The notes under the pieces: generated by a model
Told to the model about the DNA's origin: nothing
Seen by the model: the letters and a program-made list of their open reading frames with translations, nothing else
Database searches by the model: none
NCBI GenBank assembly: GCA_035711945.1
Contig: DASTBR010000074.1
Span: 1-39,433 of the forward strand
DNA length: 39,433 nt
Source of the DNA: Dehalococcoidia bacterium
GTDB taxonomy: Bacteria; Chloroflexota; Dehalococcoidia; WHTO01
Direction: 5' to 3'
Position numbers and translations under genes: made by a program
Shown: piece after piece, positions 10,076 through 27,583 of the stretch
Layout of the letters: each line of letters begins with the position of its first letter
Numbering within the stretch: position 1 is the first letter of the stretch

Positions 10076-10531
10076 TCAAGCCGGGATCAGGTTCTCGGCA
10101 CAGACGGGCCAGGGCTCCCAGCCATCCCGCCCCTGGAGGGCAGCCGCGATCCAGCTGTTGTAGACCGGATCGAGCAGTGCATCCGGGTCGAGGCCGTGGA
10201 CAGCGGGATCGATCTGGAACAGCCCGTAGTATGGGACTCCGTCGCTGACAACGGTTGGTACCCCGCCACTCTCGCAGTCGCAGACGGAGGCCGCGTCGTC
10301 GACGCGATCGCCCCAGACAGGTTCGAGGAAAGGCGTAGAGCACCAGCCCTGCTGCAGACCGATGACGAAGGGATAGTTCTGCTGGAGCGGGGGGGCTTCG
10401 GCCGAGTCGGAAGTGAAGCCGAGGGCCAAGGCTGCGAGGAAGAGGACTGCAGCGCCACCAAGCAGAGCGATGAGAGGCTTGAGTGAGGAACTGGTGGTGG
10501 CCGCCGGGCGCCAGTGGTCACCGCTGGTCAC
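10076..10531 (-). CDS. Secreted or membrane-anchored GH23 lysozyme-like / lytic transglycosylase-like protein
   Basis: N-terminal hydrophobic span LIALLGGAAVLFLAALALGF. It has the motifs CDCESGG (catalytic E-S), YYGLFQI and VYNSW, plus 4 Cys. GTG start without a clear SD, 23 nt downstream of the sigma-fusion gene. Confidence 0.55.
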   Translation of the reverse strand: MTSGDHWRPAATTSSSLKPLIALLGGAAVLFLAALALGFTSDSAEAPPLQQNYPFVIGLQQGWCSTPFLEPVWGDRVDDAASVCDCESGGVPTVVSDGVPYYGLFQIDPAVHGLDPDALLDPVYNSWIAAALQGRDGWEPWPVCAENLIPA

Positions 10532-10554
10532 CGATTAATGCTAGCGCTGGGAAG

Positions 10555-12519
10555 TTAAGCGTCCTGACCCGGGTCGTCTTCCTTCTTGCCATCGTTGGCG
10601 ATGTCGGCGGCGTTGGCGCTGTTGCCACCCGTTTCGCCGTTGTCCTTGCAGTGGCCGTAACCGTTGCCATCACCCTGACCGGGCTTGTCGCAGTCGGCGC
10701 CGCAGTTGTGATCATTGCTGCTGTTACCCGGGCAGTCGTCATCACCCTCCCCGCCGTCACCACTGTCTCCCTGACAGCCCTCGGTGTTGGGGTCCTGATC
10801 CTCGCAGGGCGGCTCCTGCTGGCAGCCCTCGGTGTTCGGGTCCTGATCCTGGCACGGTGGCTCCTCCTGGCAGCCCTCGGTGTTCGGGTCCTGGTCCCGG
10901 CACGGTGGCTCCTTTTGACAGCCCTCGGTATTCGGGTCCTGGTCCTCGCAGGGTGGCTGACACTCCTCGGCCTGCGGATTCACGACGCAGGGGTCAGGCG
11001 GCTGACACTCACGAGCGTCCGGGTTTAGGTCACACGGGTCGTCTGGCTGGCAGCCCTCGGTGTTGGGGTCCTGGTCCTCGCAGGGCGGCTCCTTTTGGCA
11101 GCCCTCGGTATTCGGGTCCTGGTCCTCGCAGGGTAGCTCCTGCTGGCAGCCCTCGGTGTTCGGGTCCTGGTCCTCGCAGGGCGGCTCTTCCTGGCAGCCC
11201 TCGGTGTTGGGGTCCTGGTCCACGCAGGGCGGGGATCCTGGTGGCTGGCAAGCCAGCGGGTCGGCCTGGCAATCGGACTGACAGAGCGTTGGGTCGGTGA
11301 TGCAGTCAGGTGCAGCCGCTACCTGCTGACCGGGCGCTTCAGGCGGACCTGGGGGCGGGTCGCTGGTAGGCAGCAGGTCATCGTCCAGGAAGCCGAATTG
11401 TCCAGCGACAGGTGGTATGCCAAGGGGCGGTATGCCATTTGTTCCAGCGGGTGGCTGTCCGAAGTTGCCAGGCCCTGACGGTGGCAGACCGATGCCCGGA
11501 TCAAAGACGAGGGGAGAGGCGGCGTCGCTGACCAGCTCATGGTCGGCGTCCGTGCTACTGCCGGAGCCCATGAAGGGGACGCCGACGTCGAATGCGATGC
11601 CGCTGAGGATGGCGGCAGTCGAAAGCGTCGCCACAGCCATCGTGCCAACGATCGCGGCAGGTGCAGCTCCAGCGCCGGCGCCGGCGCCACCGCCCGGGGC
11701 GAGCTTGCCCGCGGTGTCGGCGGCTCCGCGGCCGAGATGGAGAAGCTTGTCGCGTACCCAGGCGACGGGCAGGAAGAAGGGGATGAAGCCGGCGATGCGG
11801 CGCGTGCGGCGCATCTCTTCCTGTGTGGAGCGGCAGCCTTCGCAGCTTTCGAGGTGGGCTATGACGCGCATGCGGCGCAGGTCGCTGAGCGCGCCACTGG
11901 ATAGGGCCCGCAAGGAGGAGCGCATTTTGTAGCAGGCGAGCGCGGGCGTGTCTGAGCCCGACTGGAGCGAGCTGTATTCGCGTTGGAAGTTGGAGCGCGC
12001 CCTGTGAAGCAGGGTCTCTGTGGCGGAAACCGAGAGGCCGAGCCGGCCAGCGATGCTGACGTAGCTTCGGCCCTGAAGGTTGCGGAGGAGGAGCGCGGCC
12101 CGCTGTTTGTCGGGCAGGCGCTGCAGGGCGCGGGCTGCCAAGCGGCGATCCTCATCCTGTTCGACGACTGTGTCGGGGCCCGGAGCGGGCTCTGGAATCC
12201 AGTCGTGGTCATCGCCGAGGCTCAGGTTCTCGGAGCCGGTGGCACGGTGATGATCGCGCGCGTAGTTGCGGGCGATGGTGCTTAGCCAGGCGAAGAAGGC
12301 CTGCGGCCTGTCCAGGGAGTTAATGCGCTCGTAAGCGCGTGCCCAGGCCTCCTGGGCCGCCTCCTCGGCGATGGGCGCGGGCATAGAAGCCGTTAGGACA
12401 GCGAGAAGGTGCTGGTGGTGACGCTCGTAGAGCGCTTTGTAGGCGCTCTCGTCACCATTCGCTGCCTGAGCGACGAGGAAGGAGTCACTCTCCAGCCTGT
12501 GGTCAGCCTCAATAACCAT
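10555..12519 (-). CDS. ECF sigma factor fused to a zinc anti-sigma domain, a membrane anchor and a Cys-rich repeat ectodomain
   Basis: Sigma-70 region 2 (YKALYERHHQHLLAVL ... FAWLSTIARNYARDHHR) and region 4 HTH (LPDKQRAALLLRNLQGRSYVSIAGRLGLSVSATETLLHRARSNF). These are followed by C-x25-HLESCEGC, the hydrophobic span AAPAAIVGTMAVATLSTAAILSGIAF, a Pro/Gly linker and PCEDQDPNTEGCQxEP repeats. ATG 12519 is preferred; the longest ORF starts at TTG 12582. Confidence 0.8.
   Translation of the reverse strand: MVIEADHRLESDSFLVAQAANGDESAYKALYERHHQHLLAVLTASMPAPIAEEAAQEAWARAYERINSLDRPQAFFAWLSTIARNYARDHHRATGSENLSLGDDHDWIPEPAPGPDTVVEQDEDRRLAARALQRLPDKQRAALLLRNLQGRSYVSIAGRLGLSVSATETLLHRARSNFQREYSSLQSGSDTPALACYKMRSSLRALSSGALSDLRRMRVIAHLESCEGCRSTQEEMRRTRRIAGFIPFFLPVAWVRDKLLHLGRGAADTAGKLAPGGGAGAGAGAAPAAIVGTMAVATLSTAAILSGIAFDVGVPFMGSGSSTDADHELVSDAASPLVFDPGIGLPPSGPGNFGQPPAGTNGIPPLGIPPVAGQFGFLDDDLLPTSDPPPGPPEAPGQQVAAAPDCITDPTLCQSDCQADPLACQPPGSPPCVDQDPNTEGCQEEPPCEDQDPNTEGCQQELPCEDQDPNTEGCQKEPPCEDQDPNTEGCQPDDPCDLNPDARECQPPDPCVVNPQAEECQPPCEDQDPNTEGCQKEPPCRDQDPNTEGCQEEPPCQDQDPNTEGCQQEPPCEDQDPNTEGCQGDSGDGGEGDDDCPGNSSNDHNCGADCDKPGQGDGNGYGHCKDNGETGGNSANAADIANDGKKEDDPGQDA
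10775..11235 (-). repeat. 48-bp in-frame tandem repeat array (8 near-identical units in two blocks of 4, plus 2 degenerate central units)
   Basis: Unit starts (plus strand, CAGCCCTCGGTGTT...) are at 10775, 10823, 10871 and 10919, then 11051, 11099, 11147 and 11195. A diverged segment spans about 10957-11050. Confidence 0.9.
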
Positions 12520-12748
12520 AGTCCGGGCGGAGCGCCGGGGGCTGAGCGCCTGAATATTTGCTTCTTGGTAAAACCGGCGCAAGTTTCCGGTCTGTCACTC
12601 GTCTTATTCAGTGAGAGCCCAAGAAAATTGAGCCGGCCCTCGGGTTGACGGTTAACCTGCCGGCCGACGGTTTCCAGGATCGTGTAAGGTACCCGGCGCC
12701 AAGAGCCCCGAAGCGTCTGGCACACTACCCGACAACAAACGTCGACCA

Positions 12749-12769
12749 GGGAGACGGAAACCGTCTCCC
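12749..12769. other. Strong hairpin in a noncoding region
   Basis: GGGAGACGG-AAA-CCGTCTCCC, a perfect 9-bp stem. Confidence 0.5.
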
Positions 12770-12792
12770 CGAGGACCATCCAATACAACGTT

Positions 12793-12830
12793 GTTTTGGC
12801 CGGTTTGTCACTGGCAAAAGGGGCCAAAAC
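12793..12830. other. Extended hairpin in a noncoding region
   Basis: Perfect outer stem GTTTTGGCC (12793-12801) / GGCCAAAAC (12822-12830). An inner TTTGTCA/TGGCAAA pairing is fully paired only as plus-strand RNA, where it forms a G-U wobble. Confidence 0.45.
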
Positions 12831-12874
12831 CCCGTTTGTAACCGAACCCTTACCAAGTTGTAAAGAAGAGCCCC

Positions 12875-12913
12875 ATGCAAGAGGCCCGCCGGCCAGGGAC
12901 GGGCCTCTTGCAT
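12875..12913 (-). terminator. Intrinsic terminator after rpsI
   Basis: Perfect 14-bp stem ATGCAAGAGGCCCG / CGGGCCTCTTGCAT with an 11-nt loop, 26 nt after the rpsI stop. On the minus strand it is followed by GGGGCTCTTCTTTAC, an imperfect U-tract. Confidence 0.65.
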
Positions 12914-26300: not shown

Positions 26301-27583
26301 TATTCGCTCTTAGTCCGCCTCTTGCGGCGTCCGTTGGTCGGCTTGGCCTTCTCAGCGGGCTCTTTCGAAGCCTCCGCGGCCTCGTCGTTGGCGGCAGGCG
26401 TCTCGACGGCAGCCTCCACAGCCTCGCTGTCGGCGGTCGGCGTTTCGACGGCCTCCGTAGCCTCTTCGTCGGCGGCGGGCGTTTCGACGGCTTTCGTAGC
26501 CTCTTCGTCGGCGGCAGGCGTTTCGACAGCCTCCGCAGGTTCCGCGGCCGCAGTCGCTTCTGTTTCTGCTTCGGGGGCGGCTGCTTCCACCTTCTCGATG
26601 GCGGCGTCTTCGTGTGTTGAGGCGTCGGCATCGCCGCCTGGAGCCGGCTCCCGGCCGGCGTCGGCCTGCGTGGCGACGGTCTCGCCGGCGGCCTCGGCTT
26701 CGGTCAAGACGCCGCCGAGAGATTCAGTGCGCTCTTCGGCACCCAACGACTCGTCGCCGGGCGCGGCTTCCTCGGCGACTGCCTTGCGGCGGCCGCGCGT
26801 CTTAGGGGGAGGAGCAGGCTGGCCGGTAGCCTCGGCGAGCGCTTCCGCAGTTGGCTCGGGTGCTTCCAGCTCGGGGCCGCGCACGGCCTCAGGAGCGATC
26901 GCGGGCGCGGGGCCCTCACGGGTTTCCTCTTGTGGGGCTGCGGCAGCGGCGCGCTCAGGAAGGATCTCGCCTTTGTAGATCCAGACCTTGACGCCGATCT
27001 GGCCGAATGTTGTGCGGGCTTCGGCTGTGCCGTAGTCGATGTCGGCACGGAGCGTGTGAAGGGGGACCCGGCCCTGCATTTCCTTGTCACGGCGCGACAT
27101 CTCGGAGCCGCCGAGCCTGCCGCCAACCATGATGCGCACGCCTTGGGCGCCGCGTTGCATGGTGCGCTGGGCGGTCTGCTTCATGGCGCGGCGGTGGGCG
27201 ACGCGACGCTCCAGCTGGTCGGCGACGCTGCGCGCGACGAGTCGGGCGTCGAGCTCGGGAACGTTAATCTCGACGATGTTGACTCGGACTTTCTTGGCCG
27301 TGAGCTTCTCGAGCTCTTTGCGCAGGTCCTCGACGTTCTTGCCCTGACGGCCGATGACGATGCCGGGGCGCGAGGTGCGGATGGTGACCGAGACCTGGTT
27401 GGCGTTGCGATCGATGTCGACGCCGGAGATGCCGGCGTCGCGCATCGATTCAATGCGACGGCGGATCTGGACGTCCTCGTGGACGAGCTGGGTGTAGGTG
27501 GTGCGCTTGTCGCTGTACCACTTGCTCTGCCAGTCCTTGATGACCCCGATGCGGAAACCGATCGGATGAACCTTCTGCCCCAC
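26300..27583 (-). CDS. rpsC: 30S ribosomal protein S3, with a C-terminal low-complexity extension of about 210 aa
   Basis: [23 protein letters not shown], with KH and S3-C domains up to ..[12 protein letters not shown]. An Ala/Glu/Pro/Thr-rich tail follows and ends in [10 protein letters not shown]. Confidence 0.9.
26371..26545 (-). repeat. 39-42-bp in-frame tandem repeats within the S3 tail (about 4.5 units)
   Basis: Plus-strand units GGCGTTTCGACGGCCTCCGTAGCCTCTTCGTCGGCGGCG at 26439 and 26478, with diverged copies at 26397 and 26517. They encode [13 protein letters not shown]. Confidence 0.8.

What the first reader, a model, noticed from the sequence alone, without database searches (positions are those of the whole stretch)
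10775..11235. 48-bp tandem repeats encoding a 16-aa two-cysteine module (PCEDQDPNTEGCQxEP)
Eight near-identical 48-bp units lie in two blocks of four, separated by two degenerate units (CDLNPDARECQPP and CVVNPQAEECQPP). All are in frame. Each unit contributes exactly two Cys and an acidic DQDPNTE core, giving a regular C-x10-C-x4-C ladder. High nucleotide identity between units suggests recent expansion or concerted evolution, so copy number may vary between strains. The D-x-D-x-N-like core only superficially recalls Ca-binding repeats such as thrombospondin type 3, and I cannot assign a family. It may be a disulfide- or metal-stabilised rod acting as a redox, metal or envelope sensor for the fused sigma.
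Basis: seen in the sequence. Interest (0 to 1): 0.7.

Follow-up and report, generated by a model that had tools for sequence, protein, structure and literature searches.

The report
Cysteine-loop repeat tail on membrane-tethered sigma factor
The 48-bp repeats are real and encode a very acidic chain of small two-cysteine loops on the outer tail of a membrane-tethered sigma/anti-sigma fusion protein in an uncultured Dehalococcoidia bacterium; the repeat matches no named family, but the protein's overall design is already known.

Summary
It is a period-48 array of about 10 copies at 10762-11229, in frame on the minus strand, inside a 675-aa ORF (10555-12582).

The protein has an ECF sigma domain, a zinc-type anti-sigma domain with all four ligands, one transmembrane helix, a Pro/Gly linker, about 12 Cys-bracketed loops and a conserved 4-Cys cap. 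The true spacing is C-x9-C-x5-C, not x10/x4.

Units differ at 2-12 of 48 nt. Synonymous divergence between units (pS 0.43) is close to that between orthologous genes (0.475). The DQDPNTEGCQ core has no amino-acid changes, so selection on the peptide keeps the units alike, not recency.

Three syntenic orthologs carry different arrays at the same position:
- 2 such units plus 12 diverse loops
- at least 13 copies of an 11-aa unit, CETDPLLCPPT
- about 7 copies of a 15-aa unit followed by TSP3-like repeats

The module also occurs in a few secreted proteins or fragments, one with an LPNTG anchor motif. It matches no Pfam, NCBIfam or PDB family. Searches of billions of proteins found only about eight carriers.

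The best reading is a disulfide-stapled acidic stalk of the sensor ectodomain in an ECF52-like fused sigma/anti-sigma. A redox or cation switch is plausible but untested.

A conserved structured leader RNA lies upstream and a lysozyme-like gene lies downstream.

The parts
10555..12582 (-). Whole gene: ECF sigma / ZAS anti-sigma / TM / Cys-loop ectodomain fusion. 675 aa from TTG; the public annotation starts at ATG 12519 (654 aa, P0002).
   Evidence: ORF list; Pfam and NCBIfam domains; identical public protein P0002, 'MAG TPA Dehalococcoidia bacterium'.
12238..12432 (-). Sigma-70 region 2 (aa 51-115).
   Evidence: PF04542, E 1.7e-11; AF2 pLDDT above 90.
11995..12138 (-). Sigma-70 region 4 (aa 149-196).
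   Evidence: PF08281, E 5e-13; AF2 pLDDT above 95.
11833..11934 (-). Zinc-type anti-sigma (ZAS) motif, C217-x25-H243-x3-C247-x2-C250.
   Evidence: PF13490 zf-HC2, 22.4 bits against cut-off 22.2. C/H/C/C are invariant in the 4 orthologs and at least 90% conserved in 66 homologs. Three to four helices at pLDDT 84-90.
11590..11685 (-). Single transmembrane helix (about aa 300-331). R/K-rich before it and acidic after it, implying N-in/C-out.
   Evidence: This is the only Kyte-Doolittle 19-aa window stretch above 1.4 (maximum 1.79).
11305..11589 (-). Pro/Gly-rich extracytoplasmic linker (aa 332-426; P 21%, G 16%, net charge -12).
   Evidence: Composition.
11248..11304 (-). Two short C-x6-C loops (CITDPTLC, CQADPLAC) that open the Cys ladder.
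   Evidence: Cys map. The same type of loop is the one amplified in ortholog P0004.
11038..11229 (-). Repeat block A: four 48-bp units (PC[VE]DQDPNTEGCQxxx).
10954..11037 (-). Two degenerate units (45 and 39 bp; C-x2-N-P-x4-C). They match the 15-aa consensus found in other carriers.
   Evidence: This is the only part of the array with AF2 pLDDT of about 80.
10762..10953 (-). Repeat block B: four 48-bp units.
10648..10734 (-). Conserved 4-Cys C-terminal cap, CPGNSSNDHNCGADCDKPGQGDGNGYGHC.
   Evidence: Nearly identical in ortholog P0003 (pN 0.06, pS 0.42).
10076..10531 (-). Downstream gene, 23 nt after the stop: membrane-anchored or secreted lysozyme-like / Rpf-like transglycosylase (151 aa).
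   Evidence: PDB RpfB catalytic domain, E 0.019, with the CESGG..YYGxxQ..WPVCA motifs aligned. Pfam SLT_3 and Transglycosylas hits below cut-off. 69% identical ortholog in the same position in L082.
12520..12870 (-). Conserved structured 5' leader / RNA element between rpsI and the sigma gene (core 12633..12780).
   Evidence: Alignment of 4 loci. 95.5% of cells paired against 27-46% in slid controls, and 11 compensatory pairs against 1-3. MFE z-score -3.3. No Rfam family. The covariance model hits only the four sigma-carrying loci.
12787..12811 (-). Candidate promoter GTGAC-N16-CGTT. The blocks are invariant and the spacer is variable in sequence but fixed in length across 4 loci. It lies just upstream of the structured core.
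   Evidence: Alignment. Single occurrence in the window against 0.25 expected. Assignment as a promoter is my inference.

Best explanation
The 48-bp array encodes the middle of the extracytoplasmic tail of a single-chain, membrane-tethered ECF sigma factor that carries its own zinc-type anti-sigma domain. The order is sigma2-sigma4, ZAS, one TM helix, Pro/Gly linker, Cys-loop array, conserved 4-Cys cap.

The array is a string of about 12 mini-loops. Each is bracketed by two cysteines (C-x6-9-C) with an Asp/Asn-Pro turn, and the loops are joined by 3-5-residue Pro-rich linkers. It has no hydrophobic core and a net charge of -45.

Most likely each loop is closed by its own disulfide, possibly helped by bound cations. 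That would give a semi-rigid, protease-resistant acidic stalk that holds the conserved cap away from the membrane and forms the sensor/shield part of the anti-sigma.

By analogy with ECF52-type and IutY-type fusions, loss of integrity or ligand engagement of this ectodomain would allow proteolysis through the membrane and release the sigma domain.

Shown here: the repeat, its frame, the domain order, purifying selection on the loop peptide, rapid turnover of unit type between orthologs, and occurrence of the module in other secreted or surface proteins. The single TM segment is observed and the N-in/C-out orientation is inferred from the flanking charges.

Inferred: the disulfides and their intra-loop connectivity, cation binding, the stalk role, and proteolytic activation.
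For: Architecture:
- Pfam sigma r2, sigma r4 and zf-HC2 hits.
- A complete C-x25-H-x3-C-x2-C ligand set, invariant in the orthologs.
- A single hydrophobic segment with positive charges on the N-terminal side.
- AF2 is confident for sigma2, sigma4 and the anti-sigma helices only.

The repeat is translated and selected:
- In the DQDPNTEGCQ core of the 8 units, pN = 0 against pS = 0.42 (63 synonymous and 0 nonsynonymous differences).
- In ortholog L083, 13 units have pS 0.53 and pN 0.02.

Orthologs sit at the same chromosomal position, after rplM-rpsI in the ribosomal superoperon. They keep the alternating loop/linker grammar but amplify different units. The complete arrays have 12 and 14 loops; the truncated one has at least 13. 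Even Cys counts (28, 32) can be fully partitioned into intra-loop pairs.

The module also occurs without a sigma:
- P0068, which has a signal-peptide-like N-terminus.
- P0072, between a CARDB-like domain and an LPNTG + hydrophobic + KRR end.
- P0001.
 These are typical positions for a stalk module.

One ortholog continues into TSP_3-like DxDGDG repeats, a family known from the literature as extracellular Ca-binding repeats.

Composition: P 19%, D 14%, Q 14%, C 13%, E 13%, no aromatic residues.

The known ECF48/52/53 fusions have the same sigma-ZAS-TM-Pro-rich layout, and proteolytic release is proposed for them (PMC8999054, PMC5826349).
Against: - No experimental or structural evidence for disulfides. 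AF2 gives pLDDT of about 40-54 over the array.
- The oxygen relations of this Dehalococcoidia lineage are unknown, and no disulfide-forming machinery was looked for.
- The cap is seen in only one other ortholog. P0004 is truncated, and P0069 (a frameshifted assembly) ends differently.
- Strict conservation of every loop's core sequence is stronger than a passive spacer would seem to need. This hints at a specific binding or switching role.
- No protease or regulon evidence is available.
Confidence: 0.55

Rival explanations
1. Redox switch. The loops behave like tandem CP12-type, conditionally disordered disulfide loops. When oxidised they are ordered and protease-resistant. Reduction by extracellular reductants or thiol stress unfolds the core-less acidic chain, triggers site-1 cleavage and releases the sigma. 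On this reading the array itself is the sensor.
For: - The only PDB resemblance of the unit profile is the C-terminal redox loop of CP12 (C-K-D-N-P-E-T-N-E-C). It shares C-x3-P-x4-C with the 15-aa consensus unit.
- CP12 is disordered when reduced and partly ordered when its two intra-loop disulfides form. It also binds Cu2+, Ni2+ and Ca2+ through acidic residues (PMC9406205).
- The array has no hydrophobic core.
- The core of each loop is under strict purifying selection.
- The array is fused to a sigma/anti-sigma signalling protein.
Against: - The CP12 match is not significant (E about 0.5, 13.8 bits), and the CP12 core motif is absent.
- The window's main unit is C-x4-P-x4-C, not C-x3-P-x4-C.
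- The same module sits in non-signalling secreted and anchored proteins.
- Unit type is freely exchanged between orthologs.
Confidence: 0.2
2. Cation-binding (Ca2+) acidic wire. The D-x-D-x-N...E cores chelate Ca2+ or other divalent cations, as thrombospondin type 3 repeats do. The tail would sense or buffer envelope cations, or bind a cation-bridged envelope polymer or mineral surface.
For: - Net charge of -45 over 181 aa.
- The window unit reads D-Q-D-P-N-T-E-G-C-Q-x-E, so D, D, N and E fall at EF-hand-like positions 1, 3, 5 and 12 (sequence).
- Ortholog P0069 appends TSP_3-like repeats directly to its Cys-loop array (E 1.8e-4).
- The 16-aa subtype CED[QK]DPN recurs in the unrelated protein P0068.
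Against: - No EF-hand or TSP_3 hit on the units themselves.
- Profile-profile comparison with the TSP3-like repeats gives probability 0.15%.
- The D-x-D-x-N pattern is absent from the 11-, 14- and 15-aa unit types of the other carriers, so it is not a defining feature of the module.
Confidence: 0.15
3. Artefact or non-functional low-complexity sequence. The array would be an assembly artefact, or a neutrally drifting low-complexity tail without a specific role.
For: - The window comes from a metagenome-assembled genome.
- One ortholog's contig breaks inside its array, and another is frameshift-ridden.
- AF2 sees no structure.
Against: - There are four independent assemblies with Cys-loop arrays at the same locus.
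- The longest exact internal repeat is only 36 nt.
- The synonymous/nonsynonymous asymmetry is strong (pN/pS 0 in the core and 0.04 in L083).
- The reading frame stays open through to a conserved cap.
Confidence: 0.03

Closest known systems
ECF52-type (also ECF48/ECF53) sigma factors with fused anti-sigma, e.g. Streptomyces coelicolor SCO4117
   Same: One polypeptide with an ECF sigma domain, a zinc-finger (ZAS) domain, transmembrane helix or helices, and a long Pro-rich extracytoplasmic extension. Activation is proposed to be by proteolytic excision (PMC5826349, PMC8999054). The nearest non-orthologous homologs here are 460-600-aa fusions, named by their sources (where named) as Actinomycetota, and the Cys/His ligands are conserved across the 66 aligned homologs.
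   Different: The host is Chloroflexota (Dehalococcoidia), whereas ECF52 was described as exclusive to Actinobacteria. The extracytoplasmic module is a Cys-loop repeat array plus a 4-Cys cap rather than a carbohydrate-binding module (no CBM hit). Phylogenetic membership of the ECF52 group was not tested.
IutY (ECF243) of Pseudomonas putida, an experimentally characterised sigma/anti-sigma fusion
   Same: The membrane-bound anti-sigma is fused to the C-terminus of the sigma, and the sigma is released by regulated intramembrane proteolysis (PMC8999054). This is the mechanistic template I assume.
   Different: IutY is a Gram-negative cell-surface signalling system that works with a TonB-dependent receptor. 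It has no ZAS motif or Cys-repeat ectodomain as far as described. No sequence relationship was tested.
CP12 C-terminal redox loop (PDB 6kez, 3qv1, 2lj9)
   Same: An acidic loop bracketed by two Cys with a central Pro (C-x3-P-x4-C), in a protein without a hydrophobic core whose order depends on intra-loop disulfides. It is the only PDB sequence resemblance (PMC9406205).
   Different: E about 0.5, so homology is not established. CP12 is a stromal or cytoplasmic regulator with two loops and an AWD_VEEL core. Here there are 12-14 tandem extracytoplasmic loops, the window's main unit has one extra residue, and there is no CP12 core motif.
Thrombospondin type 3 repeats (Pfam TSP_3 / TSP3_bac)
   Same: Short, acidic, Cys-containing extracellular tandem repeats. 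TSP_3-like DxDGDGxxDxxDxCP repeats directly follow the Cys-loop array in ortholog P0069.
   Different: The units lack the DxDxDGxxDxxD signature, give no TSP_3 or TSP3_bac hit, and show no profile-profile similarity.
Stalk/spacer repeat regions of sortase-anchored and secreted surface proteins
   Same: The module's position in P0072, between a folded domain and the LPNTG signal, and in P0068 after a Pro-rich segment. Rapid unit turnover with a comparable total number of loops (12, 14 and at least 13).
   Different: Classical stalks are Pro/Thr/Ser/Ala-rich or made of Ig-like domains. I found no precedent in the libraries or papers searched for a stalk built from 11-16-aa disulfide-type loops.

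Membership tests
ECF (group IV) sigma-70 factor | Sigma region 2 and region 4 domains, with no regions 1 or 3 | tested here: met
   PF04542 (E 1.7e-11), PF08281 (E 5e-13), PF07638 and TIGR02937 at 75 bits against cut-off 42.9. The AF2 model has two helical bundles joined by a short low-confidence linker.
Class I anti-sigma domain, ZAS subtype | H-x3-C-x2-C motif plus an upstream Cys/His ligand, in a helical domain following the sigma | tested here: met
   C217-x25-H243-x3-C247-x2-C250. PF13490 scores 22.4 bits against cut-off 22.2. The ligands are invariant in the orthologs and at least 90% conserved in 66 homologs. Helices 192-263 have pLDDT 84-90.
Class I anti-sigma domain, ZAS subtype | Zinc binding and inhibition of the cognate sigma | not testable with these tools
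   Needs biochemistry.
ECF52-type fused sigma/anti-sigma | Sigma + zinc finger + TM + long Pro-rich C-terminal extension | tested here: met
   family description in PMC5826349.
ECF52-type fused sigma/anti-sigma | Carbohydrate-binding module in the extension | tested here: not met
   No Pfam or NCBIfam hit in aa 418-675 at E <= 1.
ECF52-type fused sigma/anti-sigma | Restricted to Actinobacteria / falls in the ECF52 phylogenetic group | tested here: inconclusive
   The host is Dehalococcoidia (SecY best 65% identical to Dehalococcoidia MAGs), so the taxon criterion is not met. No ECF-group HMMs were available for group assignment.
Thrombospondin type 3 repeat (PF02412 / PF18884) | DxDxDGxxDxxD Ca-binding signature detectable by the family model | tested here: not met
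   No hit on the window C-terminus, P0003, P0068, P0072 or P0001 at E <= 10. hhalign against the TSP3-like repeats of P0069 gives probability 0.15%.
CP12 | Significant sequence similarity; two Cys pairs flanking an AWD_VEEL core | tested here: not met
   The best PDB hit is the CP12 C-terminal loop only, E 0.5. No core motif is present in the sequence.
EF-hand | 12-residue loop flanked by helices, detectable by Pfam EF-hand models | tested here: not met
   No EF-hand hit on the window protein. AF2 predicts no helices flanking the loops.
Metallothionein-like metal-thiolate repeat | Dense CxC / CC / CxxC motifs | tested here: not met
   All Cys-Cys gaps in the ladder are at least 3 residues, mostly 5 and 9. 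There is no CC, CxC or CxxC in the window array.
Genuine coding tandem repeat, as opposed to artefact | Open frame, selection on the encoded peptide, presence in independent assemblies | tested here: met

The most novel reading that the evidence does not exclude
The array is an extracytoplasmic chain of CP12-like, conditionally ordered disulfide loops that acts as a thiol/disulfide (or Ca2+) 'fuse'. Reduction or chelation would unfold the core-less acidic stalk, expose it to proteolysis and release a membrane-tethered ECF sigma. The sigma would then switch on the co-transcribed Rpf-like wall hydrolase. The gene would additionally be gated by a previously undescribed structured leader RNA. This would be a new sensory principle for ECF signalling, found in Chloroflexota.
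Probability: 0.15. Interest if true: 0.75.

Novelty: new variant of a known kind. Interest (0 to 1): 0.45.

Why it matters
Sigma factors fused to their own anti-sigma are among the least understood ECF systems. Only IutY has a characterised activation mechanism, and the ZAS-type fusions (ECF48/52/53) were described only from Actinobacteria.

This locus extends the design to uncultured Dehalococcoidia. It also supplies a chemically simple candidate input domain: a core-less, highly acidic chain of Cys-bracketed loops whose stability should depend on disulfides or cations. That makes a testable hypothesis for how an ectodomain's integrity could be read out by proteolysis.

The repeat is also a clean natural example of independent amplification of different variants of one mini-module in orthologous genes, with strong peptide-level selection. 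It is an unclassified extracellular repeat worth a family definition.

If it turns out to be only a spacer, the finding is a modest annotation gain.

Tried and rejected
- Exact look-up of the window protein in the contig index failed for three start variants, although P0002 is the same protein.
- A genome-contig scan with the whole protein found no relative.
- tblastn of the sigma part, the C-terminal part and the downstream gene against 80 Dehalococcoidia SecY loci found nothing. The gene is therefore absent from the syntenic position in all sampled species-representative genomes.
- A metagenome-contig scan with the ortholog alignment gave only 32-34% identical sigmas.
- A word-indexed search with the C-terminus found one protein. 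The same search with a 10-row unit profile found one 74-aa fragment.
- The exhaustive HMMER search of 1.84 billion representatives gave 8 hits. Three of them (P0070, P0071, P0073) are unrelated low-complexity sequences that I discarded.
- AF2 on the C-terminus (pLDDT 48.5) and on the full length (array pLDDT about 40-54) is uninformative for the array. I therefore did not run fold search, because matches to a low-confidence model are meaningless.
- The PDB sequence search with the C-terminus gave nothing.
- Membership of TSP3, EF-hand, metallothionein and CP12 was rejected (see the membership tests).
- Plus-strand ORFs overlapping the array (for example 10483..11028 and 10857..11300) were rejected as by-products of a GC-rich repeat. 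The synonymous/nonsynonymous pattern fits only the minus-strand frame.
- The sigma-70 promoter scan found nothing in the region.
- Rfam found nothing for the leader.
- A literature search for Cys-rich tandem repeats in anti-sigma ectodomains found no precedent.
Full report
**1. The observation**

Tandem Repeats Finder finds one dominant array in the window, at 10771..11232: period 48, 9.9 copies, score 416. The repeat finder shows 192-nt blocks in 48-nt register.

The array is read on the minus strand, in the 675-aa ORF 10555..12582. The public annotation of the same contig starts at the ATG at 12519 and gives a 654-aa protein, P0002, 'MAG TPA: sigma-70 family RNA polymerase sigma factor [Dehalococcoidia bacterium]'.

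Parsed as peptide, the region is:
- Four units of PC[VE]DQDPNTEGCQxxx (11229..11038).
- Two degenerate units, PCDLNPDARECQPPD and PCVVNPQAEECQP (11037..10954).
- Four more 16-aa units (10953..10762).

The spacing is the exception: it is C-x9-C-x5-C, not C-x10-C-x4-C.

The ladder is also longer than reported. Two C-x6-C loops (CITDPTLC, CQADPLAC) precede it and a 4-Cys cap follows it, for 28 Cys between aa 427 and 645.

The longest exact internal repeat is 36 nt. From this I infer the units are distinguishable for an assembler.

**2. The protein that carries it**

Domain evidence:
- Pfam gives Sigma70_r2 (aa 51-115), Sigma70_r4_2 (149-196) and zf-HC2 (230-251). NCBIfam gives the ECF superfamily model.
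- The zinc ligand set is complete: C217-x25-H243-x3-C247-x2-C250. From my own knowledge this is the spacing of RsrA. It is invariant in the orthologs and at least 90% conserved across 66 homologs.
- There is one hydrophobic segment (about aa 300-331, Kyte-Doolittle 1.79). Arg/Lys lie before it and Asp/Glu after it. By the positive-inside rule everything C-terminal is outside the membrane.
- AlphaFold2 with 66 homologs models sigma2, sigma4 and three to four anti-sigma helices at pLDDT 84-98 and nothing beyond residue about 268.

After the TM helix come a Pro/Gly linker (P 21%, G 16%), the Cys-loop array and the cap CPGNSSNDHNCGADCDKPGQGDGNGYGHC. The array is 181 aa with P 19%, D 14%, Q 14%, C 13%, E 13%, net charge -45 and no aromatic residues.

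**3. Genomic setting**

The window is a chromosomal piece of a Chloroflexota/Dehalococcoidia genome. It carries the ribosomal superoperon: EF-G, S3, SecY, RpoA, S9 and others. Its SecY is at most 65% identical to any species-representative genome, and all the best hits are Dehalococcoidia MAGs.

The sigma gene follows rplM-rpsI. Twenty-three nucleotides after its stop lies a 151-aa membrane-anchored, lysozyme-like / Rpf-like gene:
- PDB RpfB, E 0.019, with the catalytic CESGG, YYGxxQ and WPVCA motifs aligned.
- Pfam SLT_3 and Transglycosylas hits below cut-off.
- A 69% identical ortholog in the same place in L082.

None of the 80 other Dehalococcoidia SecY loci contains this sigma or the downstream gene.

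**4. Orthologs and what they say about the repeat**

Three further genes at the same syntenic position were found:

| Ortholog | Relation to the window protein | Array |
|---|---|---|
| P0003 / L082 | 90% aa identity over the first 300 aa | Only two CVDQDPxTEGC units, then 12 diverse loops (C-x6-C and C-x8-C, each with [DNA]-P), then the same cap. No DNA-level tandem repeat. |
| P0004 / L083 | 59% aa identity | At least 13 copies of an 11-aa unit TCETDPLLCPP (33-bp period). The contig ends inside the array. |
| P0069 / L084 | Frameshift-ridden long-read contig | About seven 15-aa units PCEVNPEADECQPPD, then repeats hit by Pfam TSP_3 (E 1.8e-4, below cut-off). These continue in other frames for more than 1 kb. 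|

All four share one grammar. A 'loop' C-x-x-(x)-[DN]-P-x(2-4)-C alternates with a Pro-rich 'linker' C-x(3-5)-C.

Each lineage has amplified a different variant, and the number of loops is comparable (12, 14 and at least 13).

**5. Age and selection**

Among the eight 48-bp units, all 63 pairwise differences in the ten core codons (DQDPNTEGCQ) are synonymous: pS 0.42, pN 0. Replacements are confined to codons 3, 14 and 16. In L083 the 13 units have pS 0.53 and pN 0.02.

The synonymous distance between the window and L082 genes is 0.475. The units are thus about as diverged from each other as the two species' genes are.

The array is therefore not a very recent burst and is not being homogenised at the DNA level. 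Its peptide uniformity is maintained by purifying selection on every loop. This also settles the reading frame and argues strongly against an artefact.

**6. Is the module known?**

- No Pfam or NCBIfam model hits the C-terminal 258 aa at E <= 1.
- A word-indexed search of 5.8 billion proteins found one relative, P0001.
- An exhaustive HMMER scan of 1.84 billion representatives found, besides the orthologs, P0068, P0072 and P0001:
  - P0068 has a signal-peptide-like start and four units of PCEDKDPNAAGCQTEP plus degenerate ones.
  - P0072 has a CARDB-like region, four units of PCEEDPDAEGCQVD, and an LPNTG + hydrophobic + KRR end.
  - P0001 has five units of CETNPNAEGCKPP. It comes from what looks like a low-GC organism, next to PKD, cadherin-like and dockerin-like surface proteins.
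- A profile of ten triple-units (consensus PCExDPxAEGCQPPD) found only one more fragment, P0074.
- Against PDB sequences the profile's only resemblance is the C-terminal redox loop of CP12 (CKDNPETNEC, E about 0.5, not significant).
- Profile-profile comparison with the TSP3-like repeats of P0069 shows no similarity.

So this is an unclassified and very rare extracellular mini-repeat.

**7. Mechanism**

The overall design matches the ECF48/52/53 fusions of Actinobacteria. These have sigma + zinc finger + TM + Pro-rich extension, and release by proteolysis is proposed for them. IutY is the one characterised sigma/anti-sigma fusion (PMC8999054, PMC5826349).

For the array itself, several points lead me to infer intra-loop disulfides forming a semi-rigid acidic stalk:
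- The lack of any hydrophobic core.
- Even Cys counts that partition exactly into D/N-P loops.
- Arrays that begin and end with a loop rather than a linker.
- The extracytoplasmic location.
- Occurrence at stalk positions in secreted and LPNTG-bearing proteins.

The stalk would carry the conserved cap. I give this reading 0.55.

The CP12 resemblance and the unusually strict conservation of each loop keep a redox-conditional order/disorder switch alive (0.2). The DxDxN...E pattern and the TSP3 neighbours keep cation binding alive (0.15). These readings are not mutually exclusive.

None could be tested here. AF2 has no confidence in the array.

**8. Things noticed on the way**

The roughly 420-nt rpsI-sigma spacer is far more conserved than the proteins. 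It folds into a structure with 95.5% of cells paired, against 27-46% in slid controls. It has 11 compensatory pairs against 1-3, many G-U pairs on the sigma strand, and an MFE z-score of -3.3.

It has no Rfam family. A covariance model of its 148-nt core hits only the four sigma-carrying loci among 87 sources.

Just upstream of the core, invariant GTGAC and CGTT blocks are separated by a 16-nt spacer of variable sequence. This layout is promoter-like and vaguely ECF-like (my inference).

Ribosomal protein S3 has a roughly 220-aa acidic Ala/Glu/Pro/Thr tail with 13-aa repeats.

**9. Verdict**

The finding is real and coding. It is a new, unclassified Cys-loop repeat in the ectodomain of a known kind of fused sigma/anti-sigma, in a phylum where that kind had not been described.

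Interest is moderate (0.45). It would rise substantially if the array proved to be a redox or cation 'fuse' for sigma release.

Noticed in passing
window 12520-12870 (-), core 12633-12780: A highly conserved structured RNA element or 5' leader lies between rpsI and the sigma gene. It has 39 core pairs, 95.5% paired against 27-46% in slid controls, 11 compensatory pairs and an MFE z-score of -3.3. It has no Rfam family. It is found only in the four loci that carry the sigma fusion.
   Followed up: partly
window 12787-12811 (-): Invariant GTGAC-N16-CGTT, with a spacer of variable sequence but fixed length across 4 loci, sits immediately upstream of the structured core. It is a candidate (ECF-like?) promoter and occurs only once in the window (0.25 expected by chance).
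   Followed up: partly
window 10076-10531 (-): The gene 23 nt downstream of the sigma gene encodes a membrane-anchored lysozyme-like / Rpf-like transglycosylase (RpfB catalytic motifs; PDB E 0.019; Pfam SLT_3 below cut-off). It is conserved in L082 and hints at a cell-wall-related regulon.
   Followed up: partly
window 12868-12887 (-): A GC-rich terminator-like hairpin lies right after rpsI, suggesting that the sigma operon is transcribed separately from the ribosomal genes.
   Followed up: no
window 26303-26980 (-), tandem repeat 26363-26538: Ribosomal protein S3 is 427 aa long. It has a roughly 220-aa acidic Ala/Glu/Pro/Thr-rich C-terminal extension containing 39-bp (13-aa, [13 protein letters not shown]-like) tandem repeats.
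   Followed up: no
L084 8001-11170: The ortholog on this frameshift-ridden long-read contig has a much longer ectodomain. After about 7 Cys-loop units it carries many TSP_3-like DxDGDGxxDxxDxCP repeats in shifting frames. It ends with short C-x6-C loops (CDIIPEIC...). No Rpf-like gene is visible there.
   Followed up: partly
L083 11282-11724: The contig of ortholog P0004 terminates inside its 33-bp x 13.3 array, an assembly break at the repeat. Its true copy number and C-terminal cap are therefore unknown.
   Followed up: no
L001 6946-9354 and 10001-10753: P0001, which carries the 14-aa variant of the module, lies on what looks from its sequence like a low-GC contig. Its neighbours are surface proteins with PKD, cadherin-like, VWA and dockerin-like features. 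The module is therefore not confined to Chloroflexota.
   Followed up: no
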